Assembly (NCBI GenBank): GCA_036172245.1
Contig: JAYWIR010000075.1
Coordinates: 1-64,000, forward strand
DNA length: 64,000 nucleotides
Origin: Raillietiella orientalis
Lineage: Eukaryota
Direction: 5' to 3'
The notes beneath the pieces are model-generated. The model saw only the letters and a program-made list of their open reading frames with translations, did no database searches and was not told where the DNA came from. The position numbers and the translations under genes are program-made. How positions within the stretch are numbered: position 1 is the stretch's first letter; every line of letters begins with the position of its first letter. Positions 737 through 64,000 of this stretch are shown piece after piece.

Positions 737-849
737 GCCGCACGGACCTGTTCTGTGTTGCTCCTCGAGCGTGATTCCTTTCCGTCTTCTTGTGTGAAGT
801 GTGCTCGAGTGCGTCCACTGGAATTTTCACGGAGGCCCTGCAGCAAAAG

Positions 850-6325: not shown

Positions 6326-6531
6326 GAATAGGAACGGTTAAACTGCATACCCCTGTCCCCGCCCTCCCTCCCAATTTATTTATTTATTGTCCCACCCCCT
6401 CCCGTTCCGAATTCTCAGTGTGCTCGGCCTGCGTTCCGGGAAATCTACTCCCCTTGTTCTGTTCCCCTTGCCTGGGAACACAGTTCTCAGTTGATATTAA
6501 GAATAAACGTCCCAGCGCAACCGGGTAATAA

Positions 6532-36664: not shown

Positions 36665-36705
36665 CGTCGTCGAACGCATTCCCGATGTTGCCGAACGCTG
36701 CCAGA
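36665..36705 (+). mobile_element. 41-bp piece of family A ORF1 at the 5' junction of E2
   Basis: 40/41 identical to 44570-44610 (VVERxPDVAERCQ). Confidence 0.85.
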
Positions 36706-38194: not shown

Positions 38195-38425
38195 CGTAAG
38201 CCGAGACTGCAGGCGTACAGGGACAATCGCACGGCAGGTGCGCCAGAGTCTCCCTGTACGCTCTCAGCACCAATTCGACAGAGGCTCTGAAGAACAAGCG
38301 GCTCAGGCTGTGTCCCTGCCGTATGCCGCGTCGCACCAGTACGCCGTGTACGGTATGCCCGCTGAAAAAACGTTACTAACGCGCCACAGCAGCCGTCCAG
38401 CTGAGATCGGTTCGATCTCCCGGGC
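38195..38425 (-). mobile_element. Degraded RT fragment (X), outermost visible layer of the right cluster
   Basis: Reads GIRQGHSLSRL..ELVLRAYRETLAHLP..TPAVSAYA on the minus strand. Confidence 0.75.
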
Positions 38426-38430
38426 TCGTA

Positions 38431-41314
38431 CAGTGCAGACGTGTTTTCCCGTCTCTCCATGCCCGCGATCGAGCATCTTTGTGCCTGCGTTTTCGCCCGC
38501 ACTTTTGTGTTTCTGTGAAGTAGTTAAAGCAGCGTTGTGCAACATGGCCAATTCTCAGAATAGTGTGGAGGAGCAAGCCACTAAATCCACTTCCAATGGA
38601 CTGGAAGCGGCCGCATCCTCCGTGACGGTTTCCTCGCCTTCGGTGAGGAGCTACGCCGCCGTTACCTCCCAAAGACCAGGACCCTGCGATGCGGAGTTGC
38701 AGGCTTATGTGGCATCCGGCTACATGCCCGCACTCCGTTATAAGGTCAGTGGGCCCCTTAACGGGAGGACCGGGCGTGAGCTCAACGATGAGCTCGTCCG
38801 GATCGGCGTTCGGGAGGAGGAGCTCCTTGCCATCATGCCTGCGGGCAGGATGGAATACACAAAGATACGGTGCAAAAACGCGGCACTTGTGCAGCGTCTT
38901 CGTACTCCGTTGTCCATCGGTGGCAAGGAAGTCCTGCCTTCCGTGATGGACGACTCGTTTGTCGTCCAATTGTGCGACATCGAGCCGGAAATCTCCGACC
39001 GCGATGTCGCAAGCTGCTGGCGAAGTTCGCCACCGTGCACGCTCTGTGGAAGACACCAAATTCTCTAAGGGATTTCCCCTCTGTCTACATTGGACAAGCC
39101 TCCGCGCGGATCACCGTCGCGAACAGGCGTGTTGTGCCTGAGCAGCTGCAGGTGAACGGCACAGTCGTTCACCTGTGGTTCATAGGCCAGACTCGCGCGT
39201 GCGAGCAGTGCGGCAAGGAAGGGCCAAGAATTAAGGAATGTCCCACCCCGAAATGCCGCTACTGCAAAGAAACCGAGCACGAAATCAAAAAGTACCCGGT
39301 ACTTGCGAAAAAAAGGGCAGCAGCGGAACTTCGTCGAGTCCAAGAGACCGAAGCACGAAAAGCCGCTGCACCCAAGAAAAAACCCGGTTCGCGGAGACTT
39401 GGCAGAAGAGCCAAGCAATACGCGACTAGGAAGCAAGCATTCCTGCTCGTAACGCTCCGAAAGGGCGAGATCACGGCAGGGAAGCCAATTAAAAAAGGGC
39501 GCGAATGTGCGACGCTTGTCATCCCCGCCGTCGCTGCCGAACTCGGGAGCACCTCCGAGACGAGAGTCAGAAAATCTCTGGAAAAACCTAGACCAAAAGG
39601 TAGGCAAGCAGGAAGATCGCAACAGGGCGAGCACTTCCTGAGCCATTCCGTTGTTCCTCCAGAGTTCCCCAGAGCCCCAATGTAATTCAGGGCCCTCTGC
39701 GAAGGCTACAAACGCCGTAAAATGCAGCGGCGCATTGCGCAAGAGCACTCTGCAGGCAGTCGCCCCAACGCCGACTCGGAAGCAACTGAGCAATCTCTCG
39801 ACTGCCAAGAAGGTGAATCCGTTGCAGTCTTTCGAAGGCGTAACGAAAGCAACGCCCTAGAGGCTGCAATGGAAACCGCGGAGGTTTCCGCGACTTCTGA
39901 CACGGAAGCCTCCGAAAATCGTGAAGGCTAATGGAAGGTTGTGGAGAGGAGAAAAGAAAAATTTCCAAACAAAGGTTCGCAATCTCCATCCCTGAGTCCT
40001 TCCAAGGCAAAGAACAGTCGTGTGAATAGAAAAACACGCGCGGCGGGTCCCTCTGTCTTGCATAAAGCCAGCGCCGTCGACGCGTGCAAGTCCGCCTCCG
40101 TAACCGCCGAACAGACGCGATCAGGTGGAAGCAGACGCACGATGATCGCGCGAGCATCAGACTCCGTAAAGGAGTCCGATAACGCAGCTGAACGACGCGT
40201 TACTCGCGCCGGAGCCAGCGCCCGCAGGGCTGAAGCCCTCAGGCGTGGCACACTCGCGGTGGAACGGCTAGTGCTAACCCTCGAACCAACAGGTTCTGCA
40301 CCCGGGGAGGAGCACTCAATTACGCGCAGCACGGTGGAGGCCGGTGCCGACCGCACCCTCCAGCCCGTCGTGCTGCTTACTGCCCGCTCGCCGGGTGAGA
40401 CGAGCACCACGGCCTTGCTTTCCCAGCCGTGATGAGGCAATCGCGTCTTCTCGTCGTGTTGCCGTGGCGTGCTGGAACGTCAACGGTCTCCAACACGACG
40501 AGAAGAGGCGACTAGGGGCTAACGCTCTCAACGCCTTCGACTTGACGCTCCTGCAGGAGATTCACAGCATCTCCGACGAGCAGGCTGCGAGATCGAACGG
40601 CGCGCGGGCGGAAGGCTACATTATAGGTGCAGCGTCGCACGTACGTGTGGCGTCGCTTTCCTCGTACGAGGAACTTTGGTGGGAGCGGTGCGCAGAGTTA
40701 GCTTCGACACGGAAGGCCGAGTGGGACAGCTTGTACGCAAGTGGTTCGACTCGATCGACCTTGTCGTAACGAACGTGTACACGCCGAGCGGCGCTGGGCA
40801 ATGGGCAGAAAGGATTGAGTTCCTCGGTACCGTTCGGAGCCAGTGGCTCACTCGTTCTCACTCTACTGTGGCGTATCTCATTGCGCGGGACTTTAACGTC
40901 CATCTGCTGACCGAGAATAGCGCACACAAAAGGGAAAAGTTGCTAGCGGAAGAGATGTGCGCGTCCGTGCACGCGTGCCACTTGTTCGCTAACGACCCTG
41001 ATATGGCGACGTCGCCGGACCATGTTTTCCTTGATGAACACTTGCACTGTCGAGTGAGTCGGAGAGGTCCCATGCCGTGCGTGCTTTCCGAACATAGCAG
41101 GCTCGAGTTTGAGTTGCTCCTTCCAGGCAAGGGGCCTTCAAACTGTGTATGGAGGATGCCGGCAGACTGGCTTAGCCGCCCGCAGGCAACGGAGCATTTT
41201 CGCCAGTACCTCCGCGGGTTCGCCACAGGTGTACTCTCGGACTAAGACGATCTGGAAAGATCGGTCAGCGAGTTCTGCTGCCGCTTTCCCTTGCACCAGC
41301 TTCCGCGAGGCTTT
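38431..41314 (+). mobile_element. LINE family D, 5' end, ORF1 (ATG 38544, disrupted) and endonuclease part of ORF2
   Basis: AGACGTGTTTT at 38437; RSYAAV; CEQCGKEG; TGATG at 40430; WNVNGL; cut by B' at about 41315. Confidence 0.88.
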
Positions 41315-43416
41315 ATAGTTGTCACATGGGTACGCCCGGGGTGTTTATTTGTAAAAACTCTACATCCGCGGTACGAGGCCCCGTTCACGGTCATAGGCAC
41401 AGGACCTGCCGGGACGCCGGGACGCAGCCCGGCGTGGCACTCCACGGCAGCGAAAGGGGATGGCGGAAAAACAAAAAGAAAATTAAAAATAAACAAACAA
41501 AAAGAAGTTGGAGGGCAGGGAAGGGATCACTGCTCGCTGTGAGGAGGGCCCATCCGTTGAACGAAGCCCTCGAGGTCCATCCGTATATTCCCCAGTTGGG
41601 GCCATCCGACAGCTCTCTGCATGGAGCGTTGAGCATATGGGATGGCATCCCTCGCGTGTGGATCCACTCCTTTGTTGTTGGTGTCGCTCCAGGCAGCCAC
41701 GATGCCTCGGACGCAGCACAGGGCTGCGATGGCTGCGGCTGGCTGCAGTGCGTCCTTCACAAAGAGGGACCGGAGAACGTCTCTGGGGGTACTGCCCGTA
41801 GGGAGATCGAGGGTCGTCCCGAACCGTTCCCAAAGGAAACGGAGAGCAGCACAGTCCGCAATAAGGTGGAAGAACGATTCCCGCTCTCCGCACCTGGCAC
41901 ACTTAGGATCCACAGCTCCCCTTGTCCTGTGGAAGCGGCGTGCGTTGCAGGGTAAACCCCAATGCAACAGCAGCAACGCCGACTTTTGCCACTTAAGGGC
42001 CAGGATCCTGAATTCTCTTAAAACCGGGGGCTACTTCAGCTCATCCATCGGGATGGCAAGCAGCTCGCCCCATCTCTGCAATCCTCACAGCTATACGCTC
42101 GGGATCGTGGCGTCCGCCAGTTCTCCTGTAGTCCAGCCGCTCAGCAACTTCTCACGTCCCGCGATGCAGCAGGAGACCTGCCACAATGGCGTTTGGCTGC
42201 TGTGAAGTGCCCTCCTCAGGAAGGGCAGCGCAGTAGCTAGACAGGTCGTCTCTGCCCACTTGCTTCTAGCGGGACTCTCGAGAAGATTCCGCAGCGTGCA
42301 ACGGGCGTGGTAGCTGCATCGGAGACGATTCCACGACTCTTGGCTCCGCTGGTTCACAACAGCCCAGGTGCCGATATTCTCTTCCAGCCAGGCGGAGAAG
42401 TTGGCGGGGCTGCAAACCATTAAGCTCTTCTCCTTCGCCAGGGTTACCATGCGCCCGAGCAGTAGGAAGCATCCTCTGATCATCCGGCGTGGGTACAGAA
42501 GAAAAGACGCGAGTCCATCGCACCGAGACAAACGGATGGCAAGGAGTCGGGCCGGAACGTACTAAGGGATGCTCCACATCTTCGCTGCGATGGCGAGGGT
42601 TCGCCATCGCAGCTGAATCTCCAAGCGCTCCAGCGTCAGGAGGCTGAGACCGCCGTCCCGATGCGGAGCGCACAAATCCATGAAACGGACTCGGGGTCTC
42701 CCGTTGCCCCAAAGAGCGATACGGAGGAGGTCCTTTGTTCGCTTTTTTATCCTCTCTGTGGGGGGGGAAACAAAAAGCAGGGGGCGGAGGAGAGGAGCCG
42801 CGAACGTGTTCCAAACCGCGGCCCGTTCAGGCAGGAAAAGCCTGCCGCCTCGCAACGGGCCGATCGCCGTCTCTACTTTTTGAAGGCAGCCGGACCACGC
42901 TTCCGCAGGGGAGTAGTCCCCAAACGGCACACTAAGATACTTGAAGTACCTAACCGTGGGGATTTCCAAACGGACCCAGTCCTCCTGCCCTGCCCATGTC
43001 ACACCAACTGGCACCACCAACGACTTCGCCTCGTTCTCCTGTAGTCCGGCGTCAAGGCTAAGCAGGTCGAAGAAATCTCCGACCGCCTTCGCCGGGGTGG
43101 ACATAGGTAAAAGGAGCAGAAGATCGTCAGCATAGGCTGCTACGGCGGGCGTGCAGCGGCACAAGCTCGGCAAGGGGGCCAAAGTCACCCTATACGCTCT
43201 CAGCACAAACTCAAAGTAGGTGCCAAAGAGCAGGGGACTCAGGCTATCGCCCTGCCTTATGCCTCGCTGCAACGACACACAATACAACATTCGACTGCAG
43301 AAAGAGATGCAGATAATCGCGTTCCTCCAGCAAGGTAGGTGATCAAGGAGGGTGGGAAGCCCATGCGAATAAGGATCTCAAAGAGGAGTTTCTGGTCACC
43401 GCAGTCGAACGCCTTG
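41315..43416 (-). mobile_element. LINE family B-like copy B', 3' half of ORF2 and 3' UTR
   Basis: C-terminus very similar to 59577-60308; begins at the KAFDC motif where A1 is joined. Confidence 0.9.
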
Positions 43417-43440
43417 CGTGCGCCAGGGTGGACGTGTTTT
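43401..43440 (+). promoter_or_regulatory. Inr/DPE-like core promoter spanning the A1 junction (also 47538-47573, 7746-7711, 48932-48967, 560-525)
   Basis: GCA(+1)GTC with A at 43403 and GGACGTG starting at 43430, i.e. +28. Confidence 0.6.
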
Positions 43441-45443
43441 CTCGGTGCTCCTCGTGCCAGGAAATCTCCCCCAGTACAAGCGTCGTGTGGTTCGGTGGTA
43501 GATCAGGCGGCGATGCCTGACGCAACCACCAGGGATGGCCAGAGAACAGCGGCAACGCCGCCCCCAGAGGCGATGGAGGTGGGGGCATCCGCCCCCACAG
43601 AATCAATCCCCGCTGCAGCGCGGGCGTGGAGCGCCGTTGTGTCGGCGCCATCGCCTACAGCCGCGGCGGAATTGTCGGCCTATGTAGAGGAGGGCTACAA
43701 CCCCTCATTGTTCTACAAGGTAGGCAATCTATATTCTTTAGAGAGCGCGCGCGCCTTCTAAAAGGGCATGCACGCTCTCGATGTGAAAGAGGAGGAGCTC
43801 AGCGCTATGATCATTCGCAGCAGGGGTCAGTACGTTGAGGTCATCTGCAAACAAGCAGAGCTGGCCCAACGACTGCTTAAAACCCCCGTTGTGATGGGGA
43901 CCCGCAGGCTCCTCCCCACTACGGCGGACCGCAGCATTGTGGTCCACCTGTTAGGCGTAACCGCGCGAATGCGCAAAGAACAGGTTCGCGCCGCTCTGGA
44001 ACAGTTTGGAACCGTCCACGCGCAGTGGACGAAAGTTAGTCCTTTCGAGGACTACACGGAGCTGCAACACGGCCTCACGGCTGCGCGCGTGACCGTTCGG
44101 GAGGGCTGCACCCTACCCCACAAACTGGTGGTCGAAGGCGAAACCGTCGACCTCTGGTATGTGGGGAAGCCGAAATACTGCGGCTTCTGCAATACGTCGG
44201 GCCACCTCAAAAAGAGGTGCCCAACGTGCAGTGCCAAGTATGCGGCACAATGGGTCACACGAGGGAGGTGTGCCCAAAAGCAGCAGTGCGGGTGGTTTCC
44301 AAGAGAAACCTTAAAAAACGCGCCCGGCTGCTGCAGAAAAAGCTGGCGGCGGAAGCTGCCGCGAAGGCTGTGCCACCCGCGCCCAAGGCCCAGGCCGCAC
44401 CCGAGACTTCAGCGAACAACGCCGAACAAGTAGAGGGAACTAGCCAGGAGCCTGGGTGGTAGGTGGCTACGGCCAAAAAATCAAAGAAGTAGAGGAGATT
44501 GGAGAAAAAAATCGCCTACCAACAGAACAAGAAAGAGCAGGGTAGCACGATAATTAAAGAGTACAGCGTCGTCGTCGAACGCGTTCCCGATGTTGCCGAA
44601 CGCTGCCAGAAAGAACTCGCCCCTACCGACGACCTCCCCTCTGTTGACTTTGTCAACAGCGAGGGGAGCGAGCCGGCGGCGGCGTCCGTCATCGACACCA
44701 CCATCGATGACGTAGCCTTCGCGCGAGCTGCGGAGGAACTGGCAGCCTCGTTGCAGCCAGAACCCTCCAAGGCTGGCAAGAAGGCCGTAAGGCGTCCGGC
44801 CTCCCCTCAAGAGTCTCCCACTTCCGACTCCGAGGTAGAGACCGGAAGCGCAGCCTCCGTTTCCACGGCACCGCGCAAGAAGGCTGGACGTAATTCCACA
44901 AAGCAAAGGAGGTTCGTCTCCCCCGTCGAAGGGGAAGAGATGGCTTCCGCAAGCGAGGGTGCCATGAGCGTGGGAAACTATCAAGACCCGTCGCTCGAGA
45001 GACTCCCAAGCGCGGACACGGAAGGGATGCAAGGGGTGGAGGCCGATCAGTGCCTCAGGTGCCTGAGAAGGCCTACACCTTCATGGACATCCCGCCCGCC
45101 TCGCAAGAGACGGGCACCCCCACACCTTAATCTTCCCAGCAGTAATGCCGAAAATCTCCTTCTGCCGTCGTCTGCGCATCGCCGTTTGAAACGTGAACGG
45201 CATGACAGACGCCAGCAGGAGACGAGACATGGCCGCCCTTCTGGAGTCCTACGACCTTGCGCTGCTGCAGGAGATCCACGTGATCTCTGCAGAACAAGCG
45301 CAAGAGATCGAACGGATCTCCGAAGGGCGGCTGTGGTACAGGTGTGGGAGACCGAAAAGTTGCGGTGTCGCCTACCTACTTCGGCCAGCCGTCGAGGCTG
45401 CGGCTAGGGGCGTGCGGTTCGACGATTACGGTCGTGTCGGCCA
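43417..45443 (+). mobile_element. LINE family A copy A1, ORF1 (ATG 43513, disrupted) and start of ORF2
   Basis: GGACGTG at 43430; CCHC knuckle; TAATG at 45143; carries empty B and E target sites. Confidence 0.92.
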
Positions 45444-47553
45444 TTTACACCCGGATGTGCCGGGGCATTTATTTCTTTGAAATAAAAATACATGAAATGT
45501 CGCGTGGCGAACGCGAAGGTTCACCACTCCAAAACAGCTTGCTGGTTACCGGGTCAATGCCGGAAAGGTAAATTCCATGCGCGGGTATGGGAAATAAAGA
45601 AAAACTTAAAGAAACAAAAAGTTCAAATGTGGGTGGGGAACAAATGTGGTAGGGGTGGGAGGGCAAGGAAGGGATCACGGTGCGCGTGGACAGGTCCTCT
45701 AGATCCTGTTCAGGTTCCGCACAAGCTGAGTCCTTTCAGCGCCCAAGTGGCGCCACTTGCAGAGACTGCGCGCGAAAAGGCGAGTCCAGTGTAAGGCGTT
45801 GCCGGTTGGCTGACGCCTTCTTCTGGTGGCGTTACAACCCGCAACTATTCCTCTGATGCAGCAGAGGACTGCTACACTAGCTGGCGGGGACAAGGCGTCA
45901 CTACAGAAAAGGCGCCATAAAACGTCCTTTGGGACGCATCCGCGCAAGTCCAGGATAGCCGCGAGACGATCCCAGAAAAAGCGGACGGCTCTGCACTCAA
46001 GGAGAAGGTGCGAGAATGTTTCTTTTTCCCCACACCGGTCACAATTAGGATCCACAGCCCCCCGGGTGGTGTGGTGCAGGCGTGCTTTGAATGGTAATCC
46101 CCAGAGTACCACAATCAACGCCACATCCTGCCATTCCAAGGGGAGGGATGCACTGTTCCAGGACGCTGGGTGCCACTTCATCTTTTCCGGAGATAGTCCG
46201 AGTAGCTCGCCCCAGCGTCCAATTCCGTTGGGCGGGACACTCGGCGTCGCAGCGTCAGCTAGCTGCCGAGATATCCACGCCTTTATCGATTGTGTGCTGC
46301 CGCCTCTGGCGCAGGACACGGTCCATTTCCCCTGCTCGCTACTGTCCCTGGCATTCACAAGGAAGGGCAGCACTGGGGCGAGATGGGTTATCAAGGCCCA
46401 CAGAAGCTTGTCGTGGGACTGCACGATCTCCTGCAGCGTCCAGCGGGCGTGCCTTTTCATACACGTGTTCCTTGTGCCCTCCGGAACGTGGATCTTTCCC
46501 CAGGTGGAGACTCACTCGTGCAACCAGGCAGAGTAGTTCCCTGGGAGGCAGGAGATCCAGGCATTCTTCCGAACCGCAACGAAGATGCGTCGCAGCATAG
46601 AGCCACAGTGTGCTCTTCTGCAGATGCGCGCAGACAGAAACGACAAAGTCCGCCGGATCCTCAGGCTCGTTGGGCCAGGAGTCGTGCTGGGATGCACCAG
46701 GGCGTGTCTCACATTTCTGCCGCGAGGGCGAGAGTCCTAAACTGTAGTTGCACTCCCATGCGCTTCAGCGTAAGAACGCCAATTCCACCGTCCTCACGTG
46801 GAGCGCACAAGTCTTTGAGCATCACACGGGACCTCTTTTTGCCCCAAAGGACTGGCATCTGGAGGCCCGCTGCTCGTTTCCGAATAAAATAAGGGGCGGG
46901 CAAACAAAAAGTAGGGGACGGAGGAGGGAGGCCGCAAACGCGTTCCACACCGCGGCCCGTTTCTGCAAGTAGAACTTGCCTTCTTGGAACGGACCGATCG
47001 CCAACGCTGCCTTTTGGAGACGGTCGGACCAGGCTTCTGATGCGCAGAAGTCCCCCAAAGGAACGCCAAGGTAATTGAAGCACCTGCCCGTTGGGATCCC
47101 CAAGCGGATCCAGTCCAACCTCCAACCCATGCCGAACCGACAAAGACCATGGACGACTTCGCCCTGTTCACCTCCAGGCCCGTCCCGCGGCGCAGAAACT
47201 CGAAGTCCTCGAACGCACTCGCCGGGGTGGACTGGGGAAGCAGGAGCAGAAGATCGTCGGCATAGGCCGACACGGCAGGCGTGCCGGGACACGAGCTCGG
47301 CAGGGTTGCCAAAGTCTCCCTGTATGCTCTCAGCACCAACTCAAAGTAGATGTTGAAGAGCAGGGGGCTGAGGCTGCCACCCTGCCGGATGCCACGACGA
47401 ACCGGCACGCCGAACACGTGCCGGCCGCTGAAATTAATATTGATGAACGCGAAATGCCAGCAGGAGCGCAGGTAGGACTGGAGCACGGCCGGGAAACCCA
47501 TGCGTTCCAGGAGCTCCAAAAGGAGTTCCTGGTCGACGCAGTCGAAAGCTTTA
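45444..47553 (-). mobile_element. LINE family F, 3' half of ORF2 and 3' UTR
   Basis: QGGSLSP, YADD, CDRC..H...C; 3' hairpin at 45450-45464; begins at KAFDC where A2 is joined. Confidence 0.9.
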
Positions 47554-48947
47554 CGTCGGCTAGAGCGGACGTGTTTCCTCGGTGCTCCTCGTGCCGGGAA
47601 CCGTCCCTAGGTGTAGGCTTCGTGTGTGGTGGTGGTCGATCAGGCAGCAATGTTTGACACGACCACCAGTGCGTGTCAGGGGGCGGTAGCAACGTCGCCT
47701 CCTAAAGAAATGGAGTGCCAGGAGGCGGCGGCAACGTCGCCTTCAGTGGCGAAGGAGGTGGGGGAGTCCGCCCCCACAATACCGGTCCCCGCTGCAGCGC
47801 GGGCGTGGAGCGCCGTCGTGTCGGCGCCATCGCCTGCAGCCGCGGCGGAATTATCTGCCTATGTGGAAGAGGGGTATAACCCATCACTATTCTACAAGGT
47901 AGGAAATTTGTATTCTTCTGAGAGTGCGCGCGCCTTTTCGAAGGGGATGCGCGCTCTCGATGTTAAAGAGGAGGAGCTCTGCGCTATGACCATTCGTAGC
48001 GGGGGGCAGTACGTAGAGGTGATCTGCAAGCATGCAGATCTGGCCCAACGTCTGCTTAAAACCCCCGTGGTAATGGGGACACGCAGGCTCCTTCCCGTTA
48101 CGGCGGACCACAGTATGGTGGTCCACCTTTTAGGAGTTACCGCGCGGATGCGGAAAGAACAGTTACGCGCCGCGTTGGGAAAAGAAGGCACGGTCCATGC
48201 AGTATGGACCAAGCCTAGTCCTTTCGAGGACATTACCACAGTTCAGTGCGGCCTCACGGCTGCTTGTGTAACCGTTCAAGAGGGCTCTATCCTTCCCCAC
48301 AAACTGGTGGTCGGCGGAGAAAGCGTCGACCTCTGGTACGTGGGGAAGCCCAAATACTGTGGCTTCTGCAACACGTCGGGACACCTCAAAAGGAGGTGCC
48401 CCAACGTACAGTGCCTGGTATGTGGGACAATGGGCCACACGAGGGAAGTGTGTCCACAATCCGCTGTGCGCGTGGTTTCCGCAAGGAACCTAAAAAAACG
48501 CGCGCGGCTGCTACAGAAAAGGCTGGCGGCGAAGGCTGCCGCTCAAGCTGTGCCACCCACTCCCGTGGTCCAGGCCTCAGCCGACACCCTGGCAACGAAT
48601 GCCGAAAAGATCGACAAAAGCGGTCAGGTGTCGGAATGGCAAGAAGCCACAGCGAAAAAGAAAAAAAAGTCGAAGAAAGAACGACGAATTGAAAAAAAGC
48701 TCGCCTACCAAAATAAAAAACAGCAGGTTAGCGAGAATTTAAAAGAATGCAGCGTCGTCGTGGAACGCGTCCCCGCCGAACGCCGCAAGGTAGAAATCGC
48801 TGCTACCGACGAGCAACCCACTGTTGAAAATGTCAACAGCGTGGGGAGCGAACCGGCGGAAGCGTCCGTCATCGAGACCGTGATCGATGACGCCGCCTTC
48901 GAGCGTGCGGCGGAGAGCTGGCTGCATCGTTGCAGCCAGCCCCCTCC
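47554..48947 (+). mobile_element. LINE family A copy A2, left part (ORF1 from ATG 47650)
   Basis: Open ORF with two CCHC knuckles; resumes at about 60527. Confidence 0.92.
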
Positions 48948-51265: not shown

Positions 51266-51342
51266 GAGTGCGGACGTGTTTTCTTCGCTCTCGTCTCCGT
51301 GCTTTCATCCGCTTCATCTTGGCGTCGTACATTTTGACGACG

Positions 51343-53266: not shown

Positions 53267-56200
53267 TGCGGGGAATCGCGTCTTCTCGTCGTCTGTCCGT
53301 AACGTGTTGGAACGTGAACGGACTGCAGAACGACGAGAAGAGGAGATTAGTAGCCAACGCCCTGCGCCCCTTCGACCTCGCGCTCCTGCAGGAGATTCAC
53401 GTAATCTCCGACGAGCCGGCAGCCGAAATCGAGGAGCGCGCAGGCGGAACGCTACATTGGCGGTGCGGCGGCGCACACACGTGCGGCGTCGCGTTCCTCG
53501 TAAGAGGAAAAATGGCGGAAGCGGTGCGTAGTGTTCGTTTCGATGACAACGGACGGATAGGCCAGCTTGTCATCAAGTGGTCCGAGTCCATCGATCTCGT
53601 CGTTACGAACGTCTACGCGCCGAGTGGCTCTCGCTACCTCGAAGACAGAGTAGCTTTCTTTGGTGAGGTGCAGAGCCACTGGCTCAACAACTCCGGTTTC
53701 CAAGTGGCGCACCTCGTCGCTGGGGACTTCAACGTCCGCCTGCTCTCCGACGATTGGAGCCGCCCGAGGAAGCGCGCGCTGCCCATCGAGATGTGCGCGT
53801 CCGTGCACGCCGCCAACTTGATGGTCAGCGAACCTGGAATGGAAAGATCGCTCGATCACGTTTTCCTCGATGAAAACCTGCATTCGCGTGTGGGCAGGAG
53901 AGGAAGATTGTTGACTAGGCTTTCTGACCACCACAGGTTGGAGTTTGAGATCCTTCCGCCAGGCAGGGGGCCTCCGTTGCAAAACTGGAGGATGCAGGCG
54001 GATTGGCTTAGCCAACCGGAGGCTGCGGAGCATCTACGTGGATACCTCCGAGGCTTTGCCATTCAAGAACTTGCGGACTGGGACGATCTCAAAAGATCAG
54101 TCCGCGAGTTCTGCTGCCAATTCCCCTTGCACCGGCTTCCACGCGGTTTCGGAGAGGGCGTGGCCAACAGTAGAGACTTTCTGCAGGCCCGCACGTTTTC
54201 GAGACGCGCGGATGTCGGGCGTCTCGCAGAGTACAAGGCGAGGGCCGAGCGCCAGGTCTGGCAGTCCGGAGCAGCATGCCTGTTGGACGACAAAGGCCAG
54301 GAATGTTCGGCCCCAGCCGAAGTACGCCGCATTGTGAGACGCTACTACTCCTCGCTCTACGCGGATTCCCCGACGGAGGATATTCTTTCTGAGATACTCC
54401 TGTCTCAGGATGCTCGTGTTGTCGGCGAGGAGGACCGCGAACGTCTCGACGAGCCCTTCACGGCGGATGAATTTTCGTCCGCCATCGCTGGGCTGAAGAG
54501 ACGAAAGGCGCCAGGCGAGGATGGGCTCCCTGCAGAGTTTTATCAGTGCTTTGCAGTGGAGCTCATTCCTTTGATGCTGATACTCGCGACGCTGATGAGT
54601 GAATCCGGGAATGTCCCTGATTCCTTCCGCTCAGCGAAGGTGCGTCTCCTGCCGAAAGGCGGAGACTTGCGCCAACTTAACAACTGGCGTCCGATCACCT
54701 TGGTGAACTCGGACGTCAAGTTGTTTTCCAAGCTGTGGGTCGCGCGGCTAGGAAGAATCGCGGAATCTGTGGTGAGCCCGGAACAAACCTACGCGATTCC
54801 GGGACGATCCATGGAGGCGAACATCCTTTTCGCGCGTACATGGATGCAGCTGCAGGAAGTTGTGGCGCAGCAAAGCCAGGCTGCTGCGAAAGTCACTGCC
54901 GCAGGCAAAAAGAACAGGCGCCGACGGCAGGAGGGAACGCCAGGTGCCTTGGCGGTTGCGGTCGATCTCCACAAGGCGTTCGACTGCGTAAACCAGAAGC
55001 TGCTTTTGGAGCTTATGGAACGCCTTGGGTTCCCGGCGCAACTCCTGCTGTATTTGCGCGCGTGCTGGCGCCACGCGCTAACCTGCATCACTTTTAGCGG
55101 CTGCCGCGTGTATGGTATTCCCGTTCGTAGGGGCATCCGACAGGGCGACAGCTTAAGCCCGTTGCTCTTCAGCATCTTCTTTGAGTTGGTGCTAAGAGCA
55201 TACAGGCTGACGCTGTCTCACTTGCCAAGCTCCTGCCCGGGAACGCCTGCCGTGGCCGCCTACGCTGATGACCTGCTTCTTCTGCTCCCCATGTCCACCC
55301 CGGCGTCCAGTGTCGAGGATTTCTTCGACCTGATTCGTCGGGGAGCTGGCGTGAGCGTGAACAGAGAGAAGAGCGTGGTCGTTCCTGTGGGTACGTCGTG
55401 GGAGGGGCAGTCCGACTGGATCCGCCTGGGGATCCCCACGGGCGGGTACTTTAAGTACCTCGGCGTTCCGTTGGGCGCTTTCGGCGCAGCCGAAGCGTGG
55501 GCGGACTGTCTTCAGAAAGCAGAGTTGGCCATCAGCCCGTTCTTTAACGGCAAGTTTACCTTGCAGGAACGGGCGACTATTTGGAACACCTTTGTGGCCC
55601 CTCTCCTCCGTCCCCTGTTTTTTGTTTTGGACCCCCCCTATGCGGCAAAACAGCGGGCTAAGCGCCTGCTCAGGAACGCTCTCTGGGGTCCGGCGAGATC
55701 CAGGATCCGCCTTAAAGATTTGTCAGCTCCGCGTCGGGATGCTGGTTTGGGTATCCTGACAATGGAGCGAATCGGACTGCAGGTGCAGTTCCGACTGCTG
55801 GCACTGTGTGCCCAGCTATGGACATCCCCCCTGTGTGTGCCAGCTCGCATTCTCCTGCGGAGATGCGCCGGCAGCGGAGGATTTCTCTCGCTTTTGCCGG
55901 GCACTCAATACAGGAAGCGGGGTTTCGGATTTCCATTGCGGCAGTTGACCGCACTTCTGGAAGCACACTCTTGGATCTCCTGCCGCCCAATGAACTTTGA
56001 AGCTTGGCGGCAGGAGTCTGTTGAATCCTGGGCGGCGTTCCAAGGAATACGCCCTGAAGATCTTCGCCCCCTGCGCCAATTTTTTCCACGATCCTTGGAA
56101 GAAGTACTGCGGGACGAGGTGAAGTTTTCTACCCTGGCTGCCACGCCTCTTGCCGCAGCGCTGTCTGCCCTCAGAGCAAGAAACGACAGTTACCAACCGG

Positions 56201-56859
56201 CGAGGTGGGAGGTTTCCTGCACGATAGCGGGAAGAACCAAACTCCTTGGCACCTGGAAGACAAGTGAGTTGGCGGACGCCGCCACTCCTCGTGCTACTGC
56301 AAAGGGACTTCTCCGGTGGGCAGAAGAACTTGCTGTCACCCCCGAAGAACTTGTAGTCCCTCCACAGTGTATGGACAGTTCGCTGCTCCCCCTTGCTTGG
56401 AAACAAGCCGTGCTGCTTTTCGTTCACTGGGGTTTTCAGTGCAACGAGCGTTGGCATCGTGACTCCGGGGGACTTGCGTCTGCGAACTGCGTTCGGTGCG
56501 GATCGACGGAGTCGATTCCGCACCTACTTCTGGACTGCGGTGTCCTACAAGGACTGTGGCGTAGGCTGGCAACAGCACTATTGCATCCCGTGGACACCTC
56601 AAGAGACTTGCTGCGACGATTCTTCACGCCGAGCGGGCTTTCAGTAAGCGCAAGGATTGCAACCATCGGTTGCATACGCGCGATAGTTTCCGTCCGCCAG
56701 GCGTTGGTACTCAACGGACAGTACCAAGAGGTAATCAGCAAAGCATCCTTCTACATGGGAGCATCCGCTAGATGGCCTCATTTGACAGAGGAGACAAAGA
56801 GGAATCTCGCCGCAATACACCGCCGGTTTACACACCCTCATCAGCGGCCAACCCGGTGA
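53266..56859 (+). CDS. Family C ORF2, intact 1197-aa APE endonuclease / reverse transcriptase / Zn-finger protein
   Basis: WNVNGL, QE, YAP, GDFN, DH, SDH; KAPGEDG, WRPITL, DLHKAFD, QGDSLSP, YADD, YLG; CVRC..H...C. Confidence 0.96.
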   Translation: MRGIASSRRLSVTCWNVNGLQNDEKRRLVANALRPFDLALLQEIHVISDEPAAEIEERAGGTLHWRCGGAHTCGVAFLVRGKMAEAVRSVRFDDNGRIGQLVIKWSESIDLVVTNVYAPSGSRYLEDRVAFFGEVQSHWLNNSGFQVAHLVAGDFNVRLLSDDWSRPRKRALPIEMCASVHAANLMVSEPGMERSLDHVFLDENLHSRVGRRGRLLTRLSDHHRLEFEILPPGRGPPLQNWRMQADWLSQPEAAEHLRGYLRGFAIQELADWDDLKRSVREFCCQFPLHRLPRGFGEGVANSRDFLQARTFSRRADVGRLAEYKARAERQVWQSGAACLLDDKGQECSAPAEVRRIVRRYYSSLYADSPTEDILSEILLSQDARVVGEEDRERLDEPFTADEFSSAIAGLKRRKAPGEDGLPAEFYQCFAVELIPLMLILATLMSESGNVPDSFRSAKVRLLPKGGDLRQLNNWRPITLVNSDVKLFSKLWVARLGRIAESVVSPEQTYAIPGRSMEANILFARTWMQLQEVVAQQSQAAAKVTAAGKKNRRRRQEGTPGALAVAVDLHKAFDCVNQKLLLELMERLGFPAQLLLYLRACWRHALTCITFSGCRVYGIPVRRGIRQGDSLSPLLFSIFFELVLRAYRLTLSHLPSSCPGTPAVAAYADDLLLLLPMSTPASSVEDFFDLIRRGAGVSVNREKSVVVPVGTSWEGQSDWIRLGIPTGGYFKYLGVPLGAFGAAEAWADCLQKAELAISPFFNGKFTLQERATIWNTFVAPLLRPLFFVLDPPYAAKQRAKRLLRNALWGPARSRIRLKDLSAPRRDAGLGILTMERIGLQVQFRLLALCAQLWTSPLCVPARILLRRCAGSGGFLSLLPGTQYRKRGFGFPLRQLTALLEAHSWISCRPMNFEAWRQESVESWAAFQGIRPEDLRPLRQFFPRSLEEVLRDEVKFSTLAATPLAAALSALRARNDSYQPARWEVSCTIAGRTKLLGTWKTSELADAATPRATAKGLLRWAEELAVTPEELVVPPQCMDSSLLPLAWKQAVLLFVHWGFQCNERWHRDSGGLASANCVRCGSTESIPHLLLDCGVLQGLWRRLATALLHPVDTSRDLLRRFFTPSGLSVSARIATIGCIRAIVSVRQALVLNGQYQEVISKASFYMGASARWPHLTEETKRNLAAIHRRFTHPHQRPTR

Positions 56860-57142
56860 TCATTGCCCTACCCTCCATAAACTAAATTTGTATTTTCTTT
56901 TTACACCCGCGTCCCCATAGGCTCCGGAACATTTGAGGTGCTCATCGTTTAAATCCCCGTGAGTACGGAGCCTAGCCAAAAACCCTTTTCCCTTCCCTCC
57001 AGTTTTTGATTTTTGTTTGTTTCCCCTCATTCCCCCCACGCTGCGAGCGGTTTGTTTACCAGGCCTGCGTGGCGGTAATTTTTCTATGTTCTCTGTCGTT
57101 CTGTTGGTTGGGGACATTGTCCCTGACCAGTTTATTATTATT

Positions 57143-57170
57143 AATAAACGCCCCGGCGTGACCGGGTGAT
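57143..57170 (+). other. Conserved LINE 3'-terminal signal AATAAA-CG-C-CCCGG-N5-CCGGG-TG
   Basis: Found at seven element ends in the window (one degraded). Confidence 0.85.
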
Positions 57171-57172
57171 AA

Positions 57173-60100
57173 ATTTCAATCTCCGCCTGATAACAGGTGA
57201 GCCGGAAACACAGGTGAACGCGATGAACGAGTTGTGCGCCGCCATGCGTGTGCGCAACTTGTTCGCGGGTGAGAGGGGAATGGTCCGCAGCATCGACCAC
57301 GTCTTCCTCGACGCTGACCTGTGTTCACGGGTCGGCAAACGGGGGGGGGTTGCGTCAACGTTGTCGGACCATTCCCGGTTAATTTTCGAGATGCGGCCTC
57401 GCGACAAAGGACCGCCATCCAGAGACTGGCGTCTGCCGGGGGACTGGACGCGACTCTCAGGTGCGAAGGAACACCTTCGCGAATACCTGAGAGGCGTCAC
57501 GCTCCGGAATCTCCAAGACTGGGACCTTTTCAAGGAATCGGTCCGGGAGTTCTGCGAGCAGTTCCCCCTGGACCGCCTGCCCTCCGGATTCGGCGAGGGT
57601 CCTCGCAACCATCGGGCCTATTTACAGGCCCGAAGGTACGAGCGACCCCCTAATGTCCGTCGCCTGGCCGAGTACCGCGCCGGGGCCGAACGCCAAGCCT
57701 GGCAATCCGGGTCGGCCAGCTTGCTGGACGACCAGGGCCGGGAATGTTCGTCCCCGGCGTCGGTACGGCATCTCGTGCGGAGTTATTATTCCTCCCTTTA
57801 CGCCAGAGCGCCCCCGGATCAAGATGCCTCTCGGCTCTTGCTTCCGGATGGTGCCGCGGCAATAGGGGAGGAGGAGTCGTTAAGCCTCGATGAGCCTTTT
57901 ACCACCGGCGAAATTCTCGCCGGTATCAAAAGGCTCAAGAGGCGGTTAGCTCCAGGGGAAGACGGCTTGCCCGCGGAGTTCTATCAGAGCTTCGCGGAAG
58001 GGCTGGCGCCCCTGCTGCTTCAGCTGACAAGGCTGATCCGAGACGAAGGCGATGTTCCCGCCTCGTTTCGGTCAGCCAGAGTGAGGCTCCTTCCGAAAGG
58101 GGGAGACCTTAGGAATTTGAACAACTGGCGTCCGATCACGATTGTGAATACGGACGCCAAGTTGGTTGCCGGGCTATGGGCTTCGCGTCTGGGGCAGGTG
58201 GCAGAATCCATTATTAGCCCGGAGCAGACATATGCTGTTCCCGGGCGAAGTATGGATGCCAACCTCTTCTTCGCAAGCACATGGATGCACCTGCAGAGAA
58301 GAGAGAAGAAAGGGATAGGCAAAGTCGGCAACCCCACATTGGGGCCGCCAGCCGGGCTGGGAAGGGACTCCCGGGCGGGGAAGGGGGCCTTAGCGCTCGC
58401 AGTCGATCTCCATAAGGCGTTCGACTGTGTTGACCAGGGGCTTTTGTTGGAACTCCTGGGTCGCATGGGCTTCCCACCCTCCTTGATCAACTACCTGCGC
58501 TCCTGCTGGCGCCATGCGATAATTTCCGTCTCTTTCAGCGGTCAGAAGGTGCATGGCGTGCCGGTGCGGCGGGGCATCAGGCAGGGAGATAGCCTGAGTC
58601 CCCTGCTCTTCAGCACCTACTTTGAGTTGGTGCTGAGAGCCTACAGGGTGACTTTGGCCTCCTTGCCTAGCTCGTGTCCCGGCACGCCCGCCGTAGCAGC
58701 CTATGCCGACGACCTTCTCCTCCTGTTACCTATGTCCACCCCGGCGAAGGCGGTCGGAGACTTCTTCGATCTGCTCAGCCGTGGGACCGGACTGCAGGTC
58801 AACAGGGCGAAGTCGTCGGTGGTGCCAGTAGGTGCGGCGTGGGCAGGGCAGCAGGACTGGGTCCGTCTGGGGATCCCCACGGCGAGGTGCATCAAGTACC
58901 TTGGTGTGCCGTTGGGTGACTACTCCCCTGCGGAAGCGTGGTCCAGCTGTCTTCAAAAAGTCGATACGGCGATCGGCCCGTTCCTGGAAGGCAAGTTTCA
59001 CTTGCCGGAACGGGCCGCGGTTTGGAACGCCTTCGCGGCCCCCATCCTCCGCCCCTTGCTTTTTGTTTGCCCCGCCCCCAGACAATGCAAAAAGAGGACG
59101 AAGGACCTCCTCCGCATCGCCCTTTGGGGCAAGGGGAGGCCCCGAGTCCCTCTGCAGGACTTGTGCGCTCCGCGTCGGGACGGCGGCCTTGGCCTCCTGA
59201 CGCTGGCGCGCGTGGAAATCCAGCTGCGGTGGCGAACCCTCGCCATCGCAGCGAAGATGTGGAGCACCCCTTGGTGCGTTCCGGCCCGCCACCTCGCCAG
59301 GCGTGTGTCCCGATGCGAAGGACTCGCGTCGTTTCTTCTGTGCCCTGGCCGGAAGATCCGAAGATGCGGCCTTATGCTCGGACGCATAGCAACCTTGGCG
59401 AAGACGAACGGTTGGATGGTTTGTGGCCCCGCCAACTCCTCCGCCTGGTTAGAGGAGTCTGCTGGCACATGGGCTAAGCTGAACCGGAGGAGCGAAAACC
59501 ACATGAACTGCCTGCGAATCGGCCCATACGCCAACCGCACCCTGCGGGAAATACTGGAATTTCCTCGGAGTCGCAAGTGGGCGTTGACGACCCCCCTTCT
59601 ACGGCGATGCCCTACCTCCTGAGGGCGCTTCAGGATTGCCAGAAGCCGAGGTGGCAAGTCACCTGCCAGATCGCAGGCAGGAAGAAGATGTTAAGCGGCT
59701 GGACCACAGGAGAACTGGCGGACGCCACGACCCCGAGCGTCCAGCCGCGTGGACTAATGAGATGGGGCGAGCTGCTCGCCATCCCTACGGATGTGCTGAA
59801 GTGGCCCCCGGTATTAAAGGACTCCAGGATCCTGCCCCTTAAGTGGCAAGAGTCGGCGTTGCTTTTGTTGCACTGGGGTCTACCCTGCAACGCGCGCCGC
59901 TTCCACTGGACGAGGGGAGCTGTGGATCCTGCGTGTGCCAGGTGCGGGGAGCGGGAGTCGCTTCCCCACCTTATTGTGGATTGTGCTGCCCTCCGACCCC
60001 TTTGGGAACGGTTCGGGACGACCCTCGGGCTCCCTACGGGCAGCACCCCCAGAGACGTTCTTCGGCCCCTCTTCGTGAAGGACGCACTGCAGCCAGCCGC

Positions 60101-60526
60101 AGCCATCGCAGCCTTGTGCTGTGTCCGTGGCATCGTGGCTGCATGGAGCGACGCCAATAACGAAGGAGTGGGTCCACACGCGAGGGATGTCATCCCATAC
60201 GCCCAACGCTTCATGCGGAGAGCTGCCGGATGGCCCCAACTGGGGAATATGCAGACTGACCTCGAGGGCTTCGTTCGACGGATGGGCCCTCCTCACAGCG
60301 TTCAGTGATCCCTTCCCTGCCCTCCAACTTCTTTTTGTCTGTTTATGTTTTTTATTTTTATTTTTGTTTTATCCCCATCCCCCTTCGCTGCTGAGGAACG
60401 CTACGCTGGGCTGCGTCCCGGCGTCCCGGCAGGTCCAGTGCATATGGCCGTGAGCGGGGCCTTGTACCGCGGATGTAGAGTTGTTTTTTTAAAAAAATGA
60501 ACGCCCCGGGCGTACCCGGGTGTAAA
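57173..60526 (+). mobile_element. LINE family B, right part (ORF2 with one frameshift near 59590, stop 60308, 3' UTR)
   Basis: FN-LRLITGEP continues the GDFN split by C; terminal hairpin at 60505-60520. Confidence 0.93.
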
Positions 60527-62368
60527 CCTCCAAGGCTGGCAAAAAGGCAGTGAGGCGTCCGGCCTCCACCGAGGAGTCGGTAACTTCCGACCCCGAAGCG
60601 CAGGCCGGAAACCAAGTTTCCATCTCCGCGGCACCCCGCCGGAAGGCTGGAAGGAAGTCCAGCAAACCTTGGAAAGCCCCTCTCTAGGCCGAAGGCGTGG
60701 AGATGACTTCCGACTGCGAGGGTGCCATCAGCGTGGGAGAATCCCACGAATCGTCACCCGAGAGACCACCACGCACAGACACGGAGGAGATGGAGGGGGT
60801 TGAAGCCGGAAAGGTACCCAAGGTGCCTGAGGAGGCTGAAACCCTAATGGTCATCTCACCCGCCTCGGAAGAGGCGAGTTCCCCCACACCGTCATCTTCC
60901 CGGCAGTAATGCCGGGAATCTCCTCCCGCCGTCGTCTGCGTATCGCCGTTTGGAACGTGAACGGGATGATAGACGCCGGCAGGAGACAAGACATGGCCGC
61001 CATGCTAGGATCGTTCGACCTTGTGCTGCTGCAGGAGATCCATGTGATCTCTGCAGAACAAGCGCAGGAGATCGAACGCATCTACGGAGGGCGGCTGTGG
61101 TATCGGTGTGGAACATCGAGAAGTTGTGGTGTCGCCTACCTGCTTCGGCCCGCCATCGAGGCCGCCGCCCGTGGAGTTCGGTTCGACGATCACGGTCGTG
61201 TCGGCCAGCTGACTCTCAGCTGGTCCGACTCGATCGACCTGATCGTTACGAACGTTTACGCCCCGAGCGGAGCGGACCTGACGAACAGGAGGCCCAAGAA
61301 ATAATTTTTCCTTGCCCTCCATCGCGACTGGTTGACCGAGGCAGGCGTGCGGAATGCCCATCTGGTTGCAGGCTATTTTGAAGTTCGTCTGAAACCGGAT
61401 GGGCCGAATCACGAGCGTGACCTGGTCAACGAGGTGTGCGCGGTTGTACACACTTGTAATTTGTTGGCCAGTGTACCAGGGATGGAGGACAACATCGATC
61501 ACGTGTTCCTTGACGAGCACCTGTGCACTCGTGTGGGCAGGCGCTGCAAGTTGCCGTGCGAGTTTTCCGATCATCGACCAATCGTGATTGAAATCCATCC
61601 GCGCGACAGGGGCCCCCCCTCGTCAGCGTGGCGTTTGCCAGGGGACTGGCTAAAGCTCCCGGACGCGACGGAACATCTCCGCACGTTTATACGGAGCTTT
61701 AGGATGCAGACACTTCAGGATTGGGACCGCTTCAAACGGTGGGTCCAGGAGTTCTGCGACGAGTTCCCTCGGCACCGCCTACCTTCGGGATTTGGGGACG
61801 GGGTACTTAACGAACGAGCCTATCTACAGGCTCGCCGTTACACCAGGACCCCCGACATCCGCAGGCTGGCGGAATACAAAGCGGGAGCCGAAAGGCAAGC
61901 CTGGCAGTCAGGATCGGCCAGCTTGCTGGACGATCAGGGCCAGGAGCATTCGGCACCCGCTCAGATCCGCGGTCTGCTGCGGCGTTTTTACTCCTCCCTG
62001 TACGCAAAAACGCCTTCTGAGCGGGATTTCTCACGAATCTTGCTTCCGAAAGGCGCTCCTGAGATCGGGGAAGAGGAGAAAAAGTCCCTTGACGAGTCTT
62101 TCACGATGGGCGAGATCTTCTCGGCCATCGGAAAGCTCAAGAGGCGAAAGGCTCCAGGGGAGGACGGCCTGTCCGCGGAGTTTTATCATACTTTCGCGGC
62201 TGAGCTAACCCCCCTGGTACATCAACTCACCTTGCTGCTACGCGAGGCAGGTGACGTTCCCGCCTCGTTTCGTTCGGCAAAGGTGCGGCTTCTCCCTAAG
62301 GGAGGAGATCTGAGGAGCATGAACAACTGGCGTCCCATCACAATAGTGAATGCGGACGCCAAGTTGAT
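60527..62368 (+). mobile_element. LINE family A copy A2, right part (ORF1 end, ORF2 from 60909)
   Basis: cctccaaggctggc.. continues A ORF1 as in 44764-44800; cut by G after WRPITIVNADAKL. Confidence 0.9.
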
Positions 62369-64000
62369 AGTTGCCACCCGGTCACGCCGGGGCGTTTATT
62401 AAAAATTCTCTTTGATTCGTGGTACGAGGCCCCACTACGGCCAACTCAACTGGACCTGCCGGGTCGCCGGTACGCAGACCGGCGCGACTCTCCTCGGCAG
62501 CGGAAGGGGGTGGGGGAAAAAACAAAAAGAAAAATAAAACATAAAAACAAAAAGATTTAGGAGGATTGGGGAGGGATCACTGACCACTGGGAGGAGGGTC
62601 CATCCTTCGCAGGATGCCCTCGAGGTCCGTCCGTATAATTCCCAAGTGGGGCCATCTGGTCACAATCCGCAGGTAGCGGACTGCAAGTACGACTGCATCC
62701 CTGTCGTGGCTCGGTCTTCCGACGTTGCTCCAGCACGTCACAATCCCGCGTACGCAGCAAAGTGCAGCCAGGGTAGCGGCTGGACGCAGGGCATCATGCA
62801 CGAACAGAAGCCGAAAAACGTCTCTGGGCTGGCTGCCCTCCTGGATTCGTAGGGAGGCACGAAGACGTTCCCACAGGGGTCGGAGGGCAGCACAATCAAC
62901 AAGGAGGTGGGGGAGAGTTTCCCGTTCCCCACACCTGATGCAGGTAGGATCTACTCGACCCCTGGTCCAGTGGTGGCGGCGTGCGTTGCAGGGTAGACCC
63001 CAATGCAACAACAGAAGCGCCGACTCCTGCCACTTCAGGGGGAGGATCCTAGAACCAATTAATACCGGAACCACTTCAGGTCATCCGGCTGGATGCCGAG
63101 TAGCTCGCCCCATCTCTGAAGTCCTCTTGGCTGGACACTGGGGGTACTGGCGTCCGCCAGTTCACCCGTGGCCCAGCCGCTGATCAACTTCTCCTTGCCT
63201 GCGATGCGGCAGGAGACTTGCCACCTAGGCTTGCGGCTGCTGGAGAGCGCCCTCCTCAGGAAGGGCATCGCCGTAGCTAGGGGGGTTGTCTCTGCCCACG
63301 TGCTTCTCGCGGGACACTGGAGTATCTTCCGCAGAGTGCAGCGGGAATAGGCGCCGCGTCGCAGGCAGTTCCACATCTCTCCGTTCTTCTGGTTTATCTT
63401 CGCCCACGTGCCAGCTGTCTCCTGCAGGCATGCGGAGGAGTTGGCGGGGCTGCATACCATCCAGCCGTTTTCCTTAGCCAGAGTTGCCATGCGTCCCAGG
63501 AGAAGTCCGCATCTCTTGATCTTCCTGCCACGGCACAGAAGATAGGACGCGAGACCCTCCGTCCCGGATACACGGCTGGCAAGGAGTCGGGCCGGAACGC
63601 ACCAAGGGGTGCTCCATAACTTCGCTGCGATGGCGAGGGTTCGCCACCGCAGCTGAATCTCTACTCGCTCCATCGTCAAGAGGCCGAGACCGCCATCCCG
63701 ACGTGGAGCACACAAGTCCTTCACCGGGACTCGGGGCCTCCCTCTTCCCCAAAGGGCAATTCTCAGGAGGTCCTTTGTCCGTTTTTTCAACTCTCTGGGG
63801 ACGGGGCAAACAAAAAGCAGGGGGCGGAGGATAGGAGCCGCGAACGCGTTCCATACCGCGGCCCGTTCCGGAAGAAGAAACTTGTCTTCCAGAAACGGGC
63901 CGATCGCCGTTTCCACTTTTTGGAGGCAGCCGGACCACGCTTTTGCAGGGGAGTAGTCCCGCAACGGCACACCAAGGTACTTCAAGCACCTCGCCGAGGG
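62369..64000 (-). mobile_element. LINE family G (B-related), 3' part of ORF2 and 3' end; continues out of the window
   Basis: KYLG..CIRC..H...C, stop at 62577; AATAAA and hairpin at 62400-62377. Confidence 0.9.

What the first reader, a model, noticed from the sequence alone, without database searches (positions are those of the whole stretch)
38195..64000. Russian-doll LINE nest about eight layers deep, next to an insertion-free gene
Seen order: X(-) > D(+) > B'(-) > A1(+) > F(-) > A2(+) > B(+) > C(+), with G(-) also inside A2. B and A2 resume after their inserts, and the inner copies are the least decayed. The left cluster repeats the pattern (H > A3 > B3 and E1, plus the SINE in H). The 18-kb LYST gene, including kb-sized introns, has none of these elements. 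Inference: these families use each other as their habitat, and the alternating orientation could produce antisense or double-stranded RNA as in a piRNA cluster. The outer layers are inferred from one junction only.
Basis: partly seen in the sequence, partly recalled or inferred. Interest (0 to 1): 0.72.

Follow-up and report, generated by a model that had tools for sequence, protein, structure and literature searches.

The report
LINE families that target each other
Eight related jumping genes sit inside one another here because each family lands, genome-wide, on its own fixed spot inside a sister family's coding sequence, so such piles build themselves by rule rather than by chance.

Summary
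The eight-layer order is real, but it is not a clean Russian doll. Only C-in-B and B-in-A2 close inside the window. To the right G closes, but its host switches family across it. A2's 3' end, F's 5' end, A1, B' and D do not return in 60 kb: the nest seems cut by a deletion. The cause of the nest is target specificity. Genome-wide, each L1/Tx1-like family lands at its own site in a sister LINE: C 84 of 86, A 99 of 100 listed, G 15 of 15, D 12 of 12, B group 78 of 100 listed (tandem copies included). Seven of the window's eight junctions follow these rules; F does not. The rules fix orientation and include a closed loop (C into B, B into A, A into C). Hosts differ among copies, so these are mostly separate insertions. 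The LINE-free BEACH gene is expected by chance (P=0.81). No RNA data test the piRNA idea. This scan noted the same system, and the split-promoter idea, on other DNA of this genome. No paper I found describes it. A new variant of target-specific LINEs.

The parts
38195..38425 (-). X: short host fragment. Broken by D at the EN 'EIER' codons (ORF2 aa ~56), then jumps by deletion to RT aa ~600-660
   Evidence: 88-89% to family M; junction
38426..41318 (+). D: 5' half (AGACGTG box at 38437, ORF1, EN to aa ~292)
41319..43404 (-). B': 3' part of a B-group LINE, inserted antisense at the 'GFG' codons of D (junction slightly decayed), cut at KAFD by A1
43405..45443 (+). A1: 5' end, ORF1 and EN to aa ~101, inserted antisense at KAFD of B'; host CA at 43402-43403, 27 nt before the GGACGTG box
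45444..47541 (-). F: 3' part, inserted antisense at 'GRVGQ' of A1. This is an off-rule site (1 of 42 F-type ends)
47542..48947 (+). A2, first piece (5' end and ORF1), inserted antisense at KAFD of F
48948..51264 (+). B, 5' piece (ORF1 and EN to GDFN), inserted sense in A ORF1; CCTCC duplication
51265..57172 (+). C: full-length element; ORF1 from 51343, open ORF2 53266-56859 (1197 aa, APE endonuclease + RT); 3' AATAAA, hairpin, 3 A; 8-bp duplication at GDFN of B
57173..60526 (+). B, 3' piece (rest of ORF2 and 3' hairpin end)
60527..62370 (+). A2 resumed (ORF1 end, ORF2 aa 1-486)
62371..64000 (-). G, 3' part, inserted antisense at 'DAKL'. It runs on to contig position 66755 with a private internal deletion at ~65215
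1..10650 (.). Left cluster, same rules: host (7730-10650, +) holds A3 (-) at KAFD; A3 holds B3 and E1 (733-6532, +); a SINE-like repeat (about 8154-9128) sits in the host
14759..32200 (-).
34297..36710 (-). E2: internally deleted E copy in non-LINE DNA, carrying 45 nt of A-ORF1 target sequence at its 5' end
   Evidence: (95.6% to 44566-44610)

Best explanation
A species-specific radiation of L1/Tx1-like LINEs in which each family inserts, by target-primed reverse transcription, at its own short site and strand inside the coding sequence of sister LINEs. Each new copy brings fresh sites for other families and duplicates its own site, so nests and head-to-tail tandems grow from within, in a repeatable order (A>B>C recurs), youngest inside. 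Deletions between same-family copies then fuse halves of different nests, as across G. SHOWN: sites, strands, recurrence, diverse hosts, near-full occupancy of C's site, non-closure. INFERRED: that the endonuclease reads the site (about 65%); that a CA in the target serves as initiator for the element's DPE-like box, so transcripts start in target DNA and give exact 5' junctions (about 45%); that one deletion joined two G copies (about 55%).
For: Hand tallies of pattern listings, controls 0: C 62 at GDFN + 22 tandem of 86; A 90 at the KAFD-homologous site + 9 tandem of 100 listed, 152 total; G 15 of 15; D 12 of 12; B group 63 at GFG + 15 at the A-ORF1 site of 100 listed, 116 total, with 15 of 17 GTAAA/GTATA-tailed ends at the A-ORF1 site; F 30 of 42 at one other site. 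33 A flanks fall in 15-20 host clusters. C and host distances are not significantly correlated (rho 0.19, p=0.13, n=29). 66 of 67 exact matches to the B site plus upstream context hold C, while most of the 26 empty sites held carry synonymous variants. At least 9 of 100 A insertions are in C-type hosts (read by eye), closing the loop C>B>A>C. EN catalytic motifs are conserved and the fold matches L1-EN. Two EN loops sort with target type in the B group, 4 vs 8 copies. CA lies 27 nt before the box in 7 of 19 families, 0.36 against at most 0.18 elsewhere.
Against: F's junction here is off-rule (1 of 42). 22 of 100 B-group ends lie elsewhere. In the first 30 ends on contig C1 only 14 have these LINE ORFs within 600 nt, so not every family targets LINEs. 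The endonucleases are 41-43 aa between two catalytic aspartates (45 of 45) against 54-76 in 12 of 13 database homologues. They thus lack most of the stretch with the hairpin loop that shapes L1/Tx1L nicking (PMC1950540), and B and B2 share that stretch yet differ in target. The co-divergence test used only 340 nt of host, so some copying of whole nests is not excluded. The CA idea arose from five of the seven families that show it, and C, D and G do not fit. No read bridges the G deletion.
Confidence: 0.85

Rival explanations
1. A few founder nests were copied as blocks (segmental duplication, or a composite B::C RNA moved in trans), so identical junctions are descent and not targeting.
For: The C-B junction with 4.5 kb of flank recurs at 90-92% on five contigs; most C hosts form one cluster; A>B>C recurs on C29 and C91.
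Against: A, G and B-group ends sit at the homologous codon of many different host families. C sits in B subfamilies with different targets. The nearest neighbour by insert and by host mostly disagree.
Confidence: 0.08
2. Random or chromatin-guided insertion into gene-poor islands (Zepp-like or centromeric), retained by selection, possibly as a piRNA source.
For: Nests are dense, GC-rich and often lie near contig ends, as Zepp clusters do (PMC3446292, PMC8226300).
Against: Regional preference cannot give base-exact, strand-fixed sites in 84 of 86 or 99 of 100 cases. It may act on top of them.
Confidence: 0.04
3. The site is chosen by RNA: a target-derived 5' leader pairs with the target and guides or licenses insertion, while the shortened endonuclease is fairly unselective.
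For: Short EN loop region in all families. Close sisters B and B2 have unrelated targets. E2 carries 45 nt of target into non-LINE DNA. A few A leaders differ from their nearest intact hosts. R1 precedent for target-derived leaders (PMC2718515).
Against: 3' ends carry only 2-5 A and no target copy, so first-strand priming has no evident pairing. Most leaders match the host. EN loops co-vary with target. Off-target 3' junctions keep the first 5-7 target bases, as a nuclease preference would.
Confidence: 0.2
4. The switch across G is an assembly misjoin, and the true nest closes.
For: The G internal junction is seen once among 40 scored matches; repeats are prone to misjoins.
Against: The junction is a non-homologous ORF1-to-ORF2 join, not a collapse of alike sequence. 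Similar deletions occur in X, E2 and at contig position ~77920.
Confidence: 0.15

Closest known systems
Target-specific Tx1-clade LINEs (Tx1 in piggyBac-type Tx1D; Tx1-Mar in Mariner-N4_AMi; Tx1-8_Crp and Tx1-4_AMi in LTR elements; Keno, Kibi, Koshi), PMC4494074, passages read
   Same: APE endonuclease + RT, CCHC ORF1, target duplications, fixed targets in other repeats, each family with its own target.
   Different: Here the targets are coding motifs of sister LINEs, on fixed strands, for about a dozen family-site pairs in one genome, with a closed loop. The EN loop region is about 17 aa shorter. Best full-length database relatives are only about 26-37% identical.
Zepp / ZeppL L1 elements of green algae, PMC3446292 and PMC8226300, passages read
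   Same: GC-rich nested LINE clusters that grow by insertion into existing copies; often at contig ends.
   Different: Zepp is described as targeting its own copies, giving mostly 5'-truncated arrays, one cluster per chromosome. Here many families cross-target at base-exact sites and many copies are full-length. A centromere link is untested.
R1/R2 site-specific elements, PMC2718515, passages read
   Same: Exact junctions, tandem arrays at the duplicated site, off-target copies that carry upstream target sequence.
   Different: Their target is 28S rDNA, not another LINE.
Inr+DPE promoters of Drosophila LINEs (jockey, Doc, F, G, I), PMC1636488 and PMC4748587, passages read
   Same: Box A/G-G-A/T-C-G-T-G about 28 nt from the start.
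   Different: Here the predicted start lies in target DNA outside the element. No transcript data.

Membership tests
L1/Tx1-group non-LTR retrotransposon | ORF2 with APE endonuclease and RT; zf-RVT near the C-terminus | tested here: met
   PF03372 and PF00078 in C; PF13966 in F; L1 ORF2p best in PDB
L1/Tx1-group non-LTR retrotransposon | Separate ORF1 with RNA-binding and CCHC domains | tested here: met
   Atlas hits zf-CCHC / RBD_ZCCHC3 at 0.95 for B ORF1; no Pfam hit at 0.001
L1/Tx1-group non-LTR retrotransposon | Target-site duplication, A-rich 3' end | tested here: met
   5-, 8- and 15-bp duplications; only 2-5 A after a hairpin
Tx1 clade proper | RT phylogeny groups with named Tx1 elements | not testable with these tools
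   No Repbase set held. Named near hits are unclassified turtle, fish, pseudoscorpion and algal proteins; calling the turtle one Tx1-like is recalled
Target-specific LINE family (criterion in PMC4494074) | More than 20% of flanks are one sequence type | tested here: met
   A, B, B2, C, D, F, G: 63-100%
Target-specific APE LINEs (L1, Tx1L, R1) | Full-length bB6-bB5 hairpin-loop region in EN | tested here: inconclusive
   Region about 17 aa shorter by motif spacing; the model is low-confidence next to it
Zepp / ZeppL | Self-targeting, mostly 5'-truncated arrays | tested here: not met
   Cross-family targets dominate; hundreds of intact 5' ends (414, control 5)
Zepp / ZeppL | One cluster per chromosome, at the centromere | not testable with these tools
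   491 contigs, no ChIP data
piRNA cluster | Source of dense 24-31 nt RNAs | not testable with these tools
   No RNA run listed
Inr+DPE core promoter | DPE consensus with initiator A 27 nt upstream | tested here: inconclusive
   Box matches consensus; CA in place in 7 of 19 families; start sites not mapped

The most novel reading that the evidence does not exclude
A self-contained ecosystem of LINEs in which the target both receives the element and completes its promoter. Transcripts start in the host LINE, and the target-derived 5' leader, rather than the shortened endonuclease alone, helps select the site. Targets could then change quickly between sister families, and hosts escape by synonymous changes, in a closed C>B>A>C loop.
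Probability: 0.2. Interest if true: 0.88.

Novelty: new variant of a known kind. Interest (0 to 1): 0.68.

Why it matters
It shows how repeat islands can build themselves by fixed rules without harming genes. It also offers about a dozen closely related endonucleases (50-85% identical) with different natural targets in one genome. That makes a long-open question, how APE endonucleases of LINEs gain and switch sequence specificity, directly testable by domain and leader swaps. The near-full occupancy of C's site and the spared synonymous variants suggest an arms race among transposons.

Tried and rejected
Perfect Russian-doll closure: rejected. Gene avoidance as a signal: not significant. A family of internally deleted G copies: not seen, 1 of 40 scored among 1299 candidates. 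Hairpins between the duplication and the 5' spacer: five leaders fold no better than shuffles, z -0.9 to +1.3, so dropped. An HDV-like ribozyme at the 5' end: considered by eye, order of stems does not fit; Rfam gives 0 matches in the window. Composite B::C moved by C's enzyme: no B-group 3' end of 100 listed lies at C's site. Sequencing runs: one DNA holder, no RNA holder listed. Its contigs laid on contig 64001-74000 show no joint at the G deletion and a loose end there: no verdict. Metagenome scan for the 3' motif: 30 hits, none with LINE similarity. Homologue search with the WD40 exon: none. Flanks of ends outside LINE ORFs: 45 of 122 frames scanned, 1 Pfam hit (RRM), so those targets stay unidentified. 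Single-sequence EN model unusable. Literature: 8 searches answered found no description of cross-family LINE targeting; the library lacks most subscription papers and Repbase. The original Zepp paper was not held. No supplements were read; those of PMC4494074 list Tx1 targets and may bear on novelty.

Full report
What is there. The window is contig C75:1-64000 of a 210-Mb eukaryotic assembly. Two GC-rich blocks (about 60%) flank an AT-rich BEACH/WD40 gene. The blocks are related non-LTR retrotransposons. The innermost, C (51265-57172), is intact, with a 1197-aa APE-endonuclease/RT ORF2 whose best solved relative is human L1 ORF2p. All families share a 5' box (A/G)GACGTG and a 3' end made of AATAAA, a CCCGG/CCGGG hairpin and 2-5 A. 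The 3' motif occurs 2413 times in the genome, control 0. Apart from three environmental fragments at 58-69%, database relatives are about 26-37% identical, so this is a lineage-specific radiation.

The observation. C closes in B and B closes in A2, each with a target duplication. Identity to the nearest held relative rises inward (Spearman 0.90, n=8; sample enriched for inner families). I extended the contig by 60 kb. G closes with a 15-bp duplication, but it lacks about 1.5 kb, its internal junction is seen only here among 40 scored matches, and its host is A-type on the left and B-type on the right. What follows is the right half of a different nest. None of four other expected termini was found. 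One deletion from inside one G to inside another G at the same kind of site would explain both facts; this is inference, and a misjoin is not excluded. An F-type 5' part at 74830-76455 could belong to the window's F, with its middle lost. The gene has no LINE match, but 0.21 ends are expected in that length.

Why it nests. I listed the flanks of family-specific ends genome-wide and tallied them by eye. C: 62 at the GDFN codons of B-group endonucleases (sense), 22 head-to-tail at the duplicated site, 2 elsewhere, of 86. A: 90 antisense at the KAFD-homologous RT codons, 9 tandem, 1 other, of 100 listed out of 152. G: 15 of 15 antisense at DAKL. D: 12 of 12 antisense at the EIER word, 11 with the host codons beyond it. 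B group: 63 antisense at GFG, 15 at a site in A ORF1, 22 elsewhere, of 100 listed out of 116; the A-ORF1 site belongs to the GTAAA-tailed subfamily, 15 of 17. F: 30 of 42 at one site, and the window's F junction is unique. So seven of the eight junctions follow family rules. More family-site pairs appear among 147 held 3' ends. The rules set orientation and contain a loop: C into B, B into A, and A into C-type hosts in at least 9 of 100.

Separate events or copied blocks? 33 non-tandem A flanks fall into 15-20 host clusters. G and B-group ends also sit in many host types. For 29 C junctions, insert and host distances are not significantly correlated (rho 0.19, p=0.13; only 340 nt of host). 66 of 67 exact copies of the B site with its upstream context hold C. 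Most of 26 empty homologous sites held carry synonymous variants, a few do not. Against over-generalising: of the first 30 ends on contig C1, 14 have these LINE ORFs nearby; the other flanks are mostly GC-rich and unidentified.

Mechanism. Target-primed reverse transcription at a family-specific nick is the default reading (established for this group). Catalytic motifs are conserved in 22 stop-free endonuclease domains, the model matches L1-EN, and two N-terminal loops sort with target type in the B group (linkage could also do this). One oddity: the spacing between two catalytic aspartates is 41-43 aa in 45 of 45 hits, against 54-76 in 12 of 13 homologues. The missing stretch includes the hairpin loop that shapes L1 and Tx1L nicking (PMC1950540, passages). 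The 5' box matches the DPE of Drosophila LINEs (PMC1636488, PMC4748587, passages). A host-supplied CA lies 27 nt upstream in 7 of 19 families (binomial p about 2e-4, but five of the seven prompted the idea). E2 (34297-36710) carries 45 nt of its usual target into non-LINE DNA, as off-site R1 copies do (PMC2718515, passages). Transcripts that start in the target are therefore plausible but unshown.

Comparison and novelty. It works like target-specific Tx1 LINEs and meets the 20% criterion of PMC4494074 (passages). Clade membership could not be tested. It resembles Zepp clusters (PMC3446292, PMC8226300, passages) but fails the self-targeting, truncated-array feature. Eight literature searches (listings only, apart from the papers named) found no cross-family LINE targeting network; coverage is partial. 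Earlier notes of this scan describe the same system and the split-promoter idea on other pieces of this genome. I reached both before reading them. They pointed me to Zepp papers, to PMC2718515 and to the reading of E2 as an off-target copy. The genome-wide counts, the occupancy, the loop and the non-closure are tested here.

Verdict. The nest is real and rule-built; the perfect doll, the gene contrast and the piRNA role are not supported. New variant of a known kind, interest 0.68.

Noticed in passing
window 36661-36705: 45 nt of A-ORF1 target sequence (95.6% to 44566-44610) at the 5' end of an internally deleted E copy lying in non-LINE DNA; suggests a transcript that began in the old host.
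   Followed up: partly
window about 8154-9128: About 1-kb non-coding repeat with a 13-bp duplication inside a LINE RT; 85-93% copies at C75:106786-107861 and weaker matches beside several LINE ends on C1.
   Followed up: partly
window 11649-14028 (-): A more distant LINE (RT by Pfam, different motifs) abuts the 3' end of the BEACH gene.
   Followed up: no
C75:65215 (L001 about 1215): G's deletion joins ORF1 to ORF2 aa ~322 and removes the endonuclease; seen once among 40 scored matches.
   Followed up: partly
L029, L031, L044 and C75:106342: A group of 3' ends shares a target word (CCAG.G.CGCACC) that is not in these LINE ORFs; the target repeat is unidentified.
   Followed up: partly
C1:1-45000, C3:1-10000, C9:1-20000, C29:5001-60000, C1:8010000-8076000: Dense nests at several contig starts and one internal block; candidates for centromeric or other heterochromatic islands.
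   Followed up: no
all endonuclease domains held: About 17 aa shorter than L1-EN between the GDFN and xDH motifs.
   Followed up: partly
window 14000-33000 against LINE blocks: Host gene DNA is about 30% GC and CpG-poor, while the LINEs are about 60% GC with no CpG loss.
   Followed up: no
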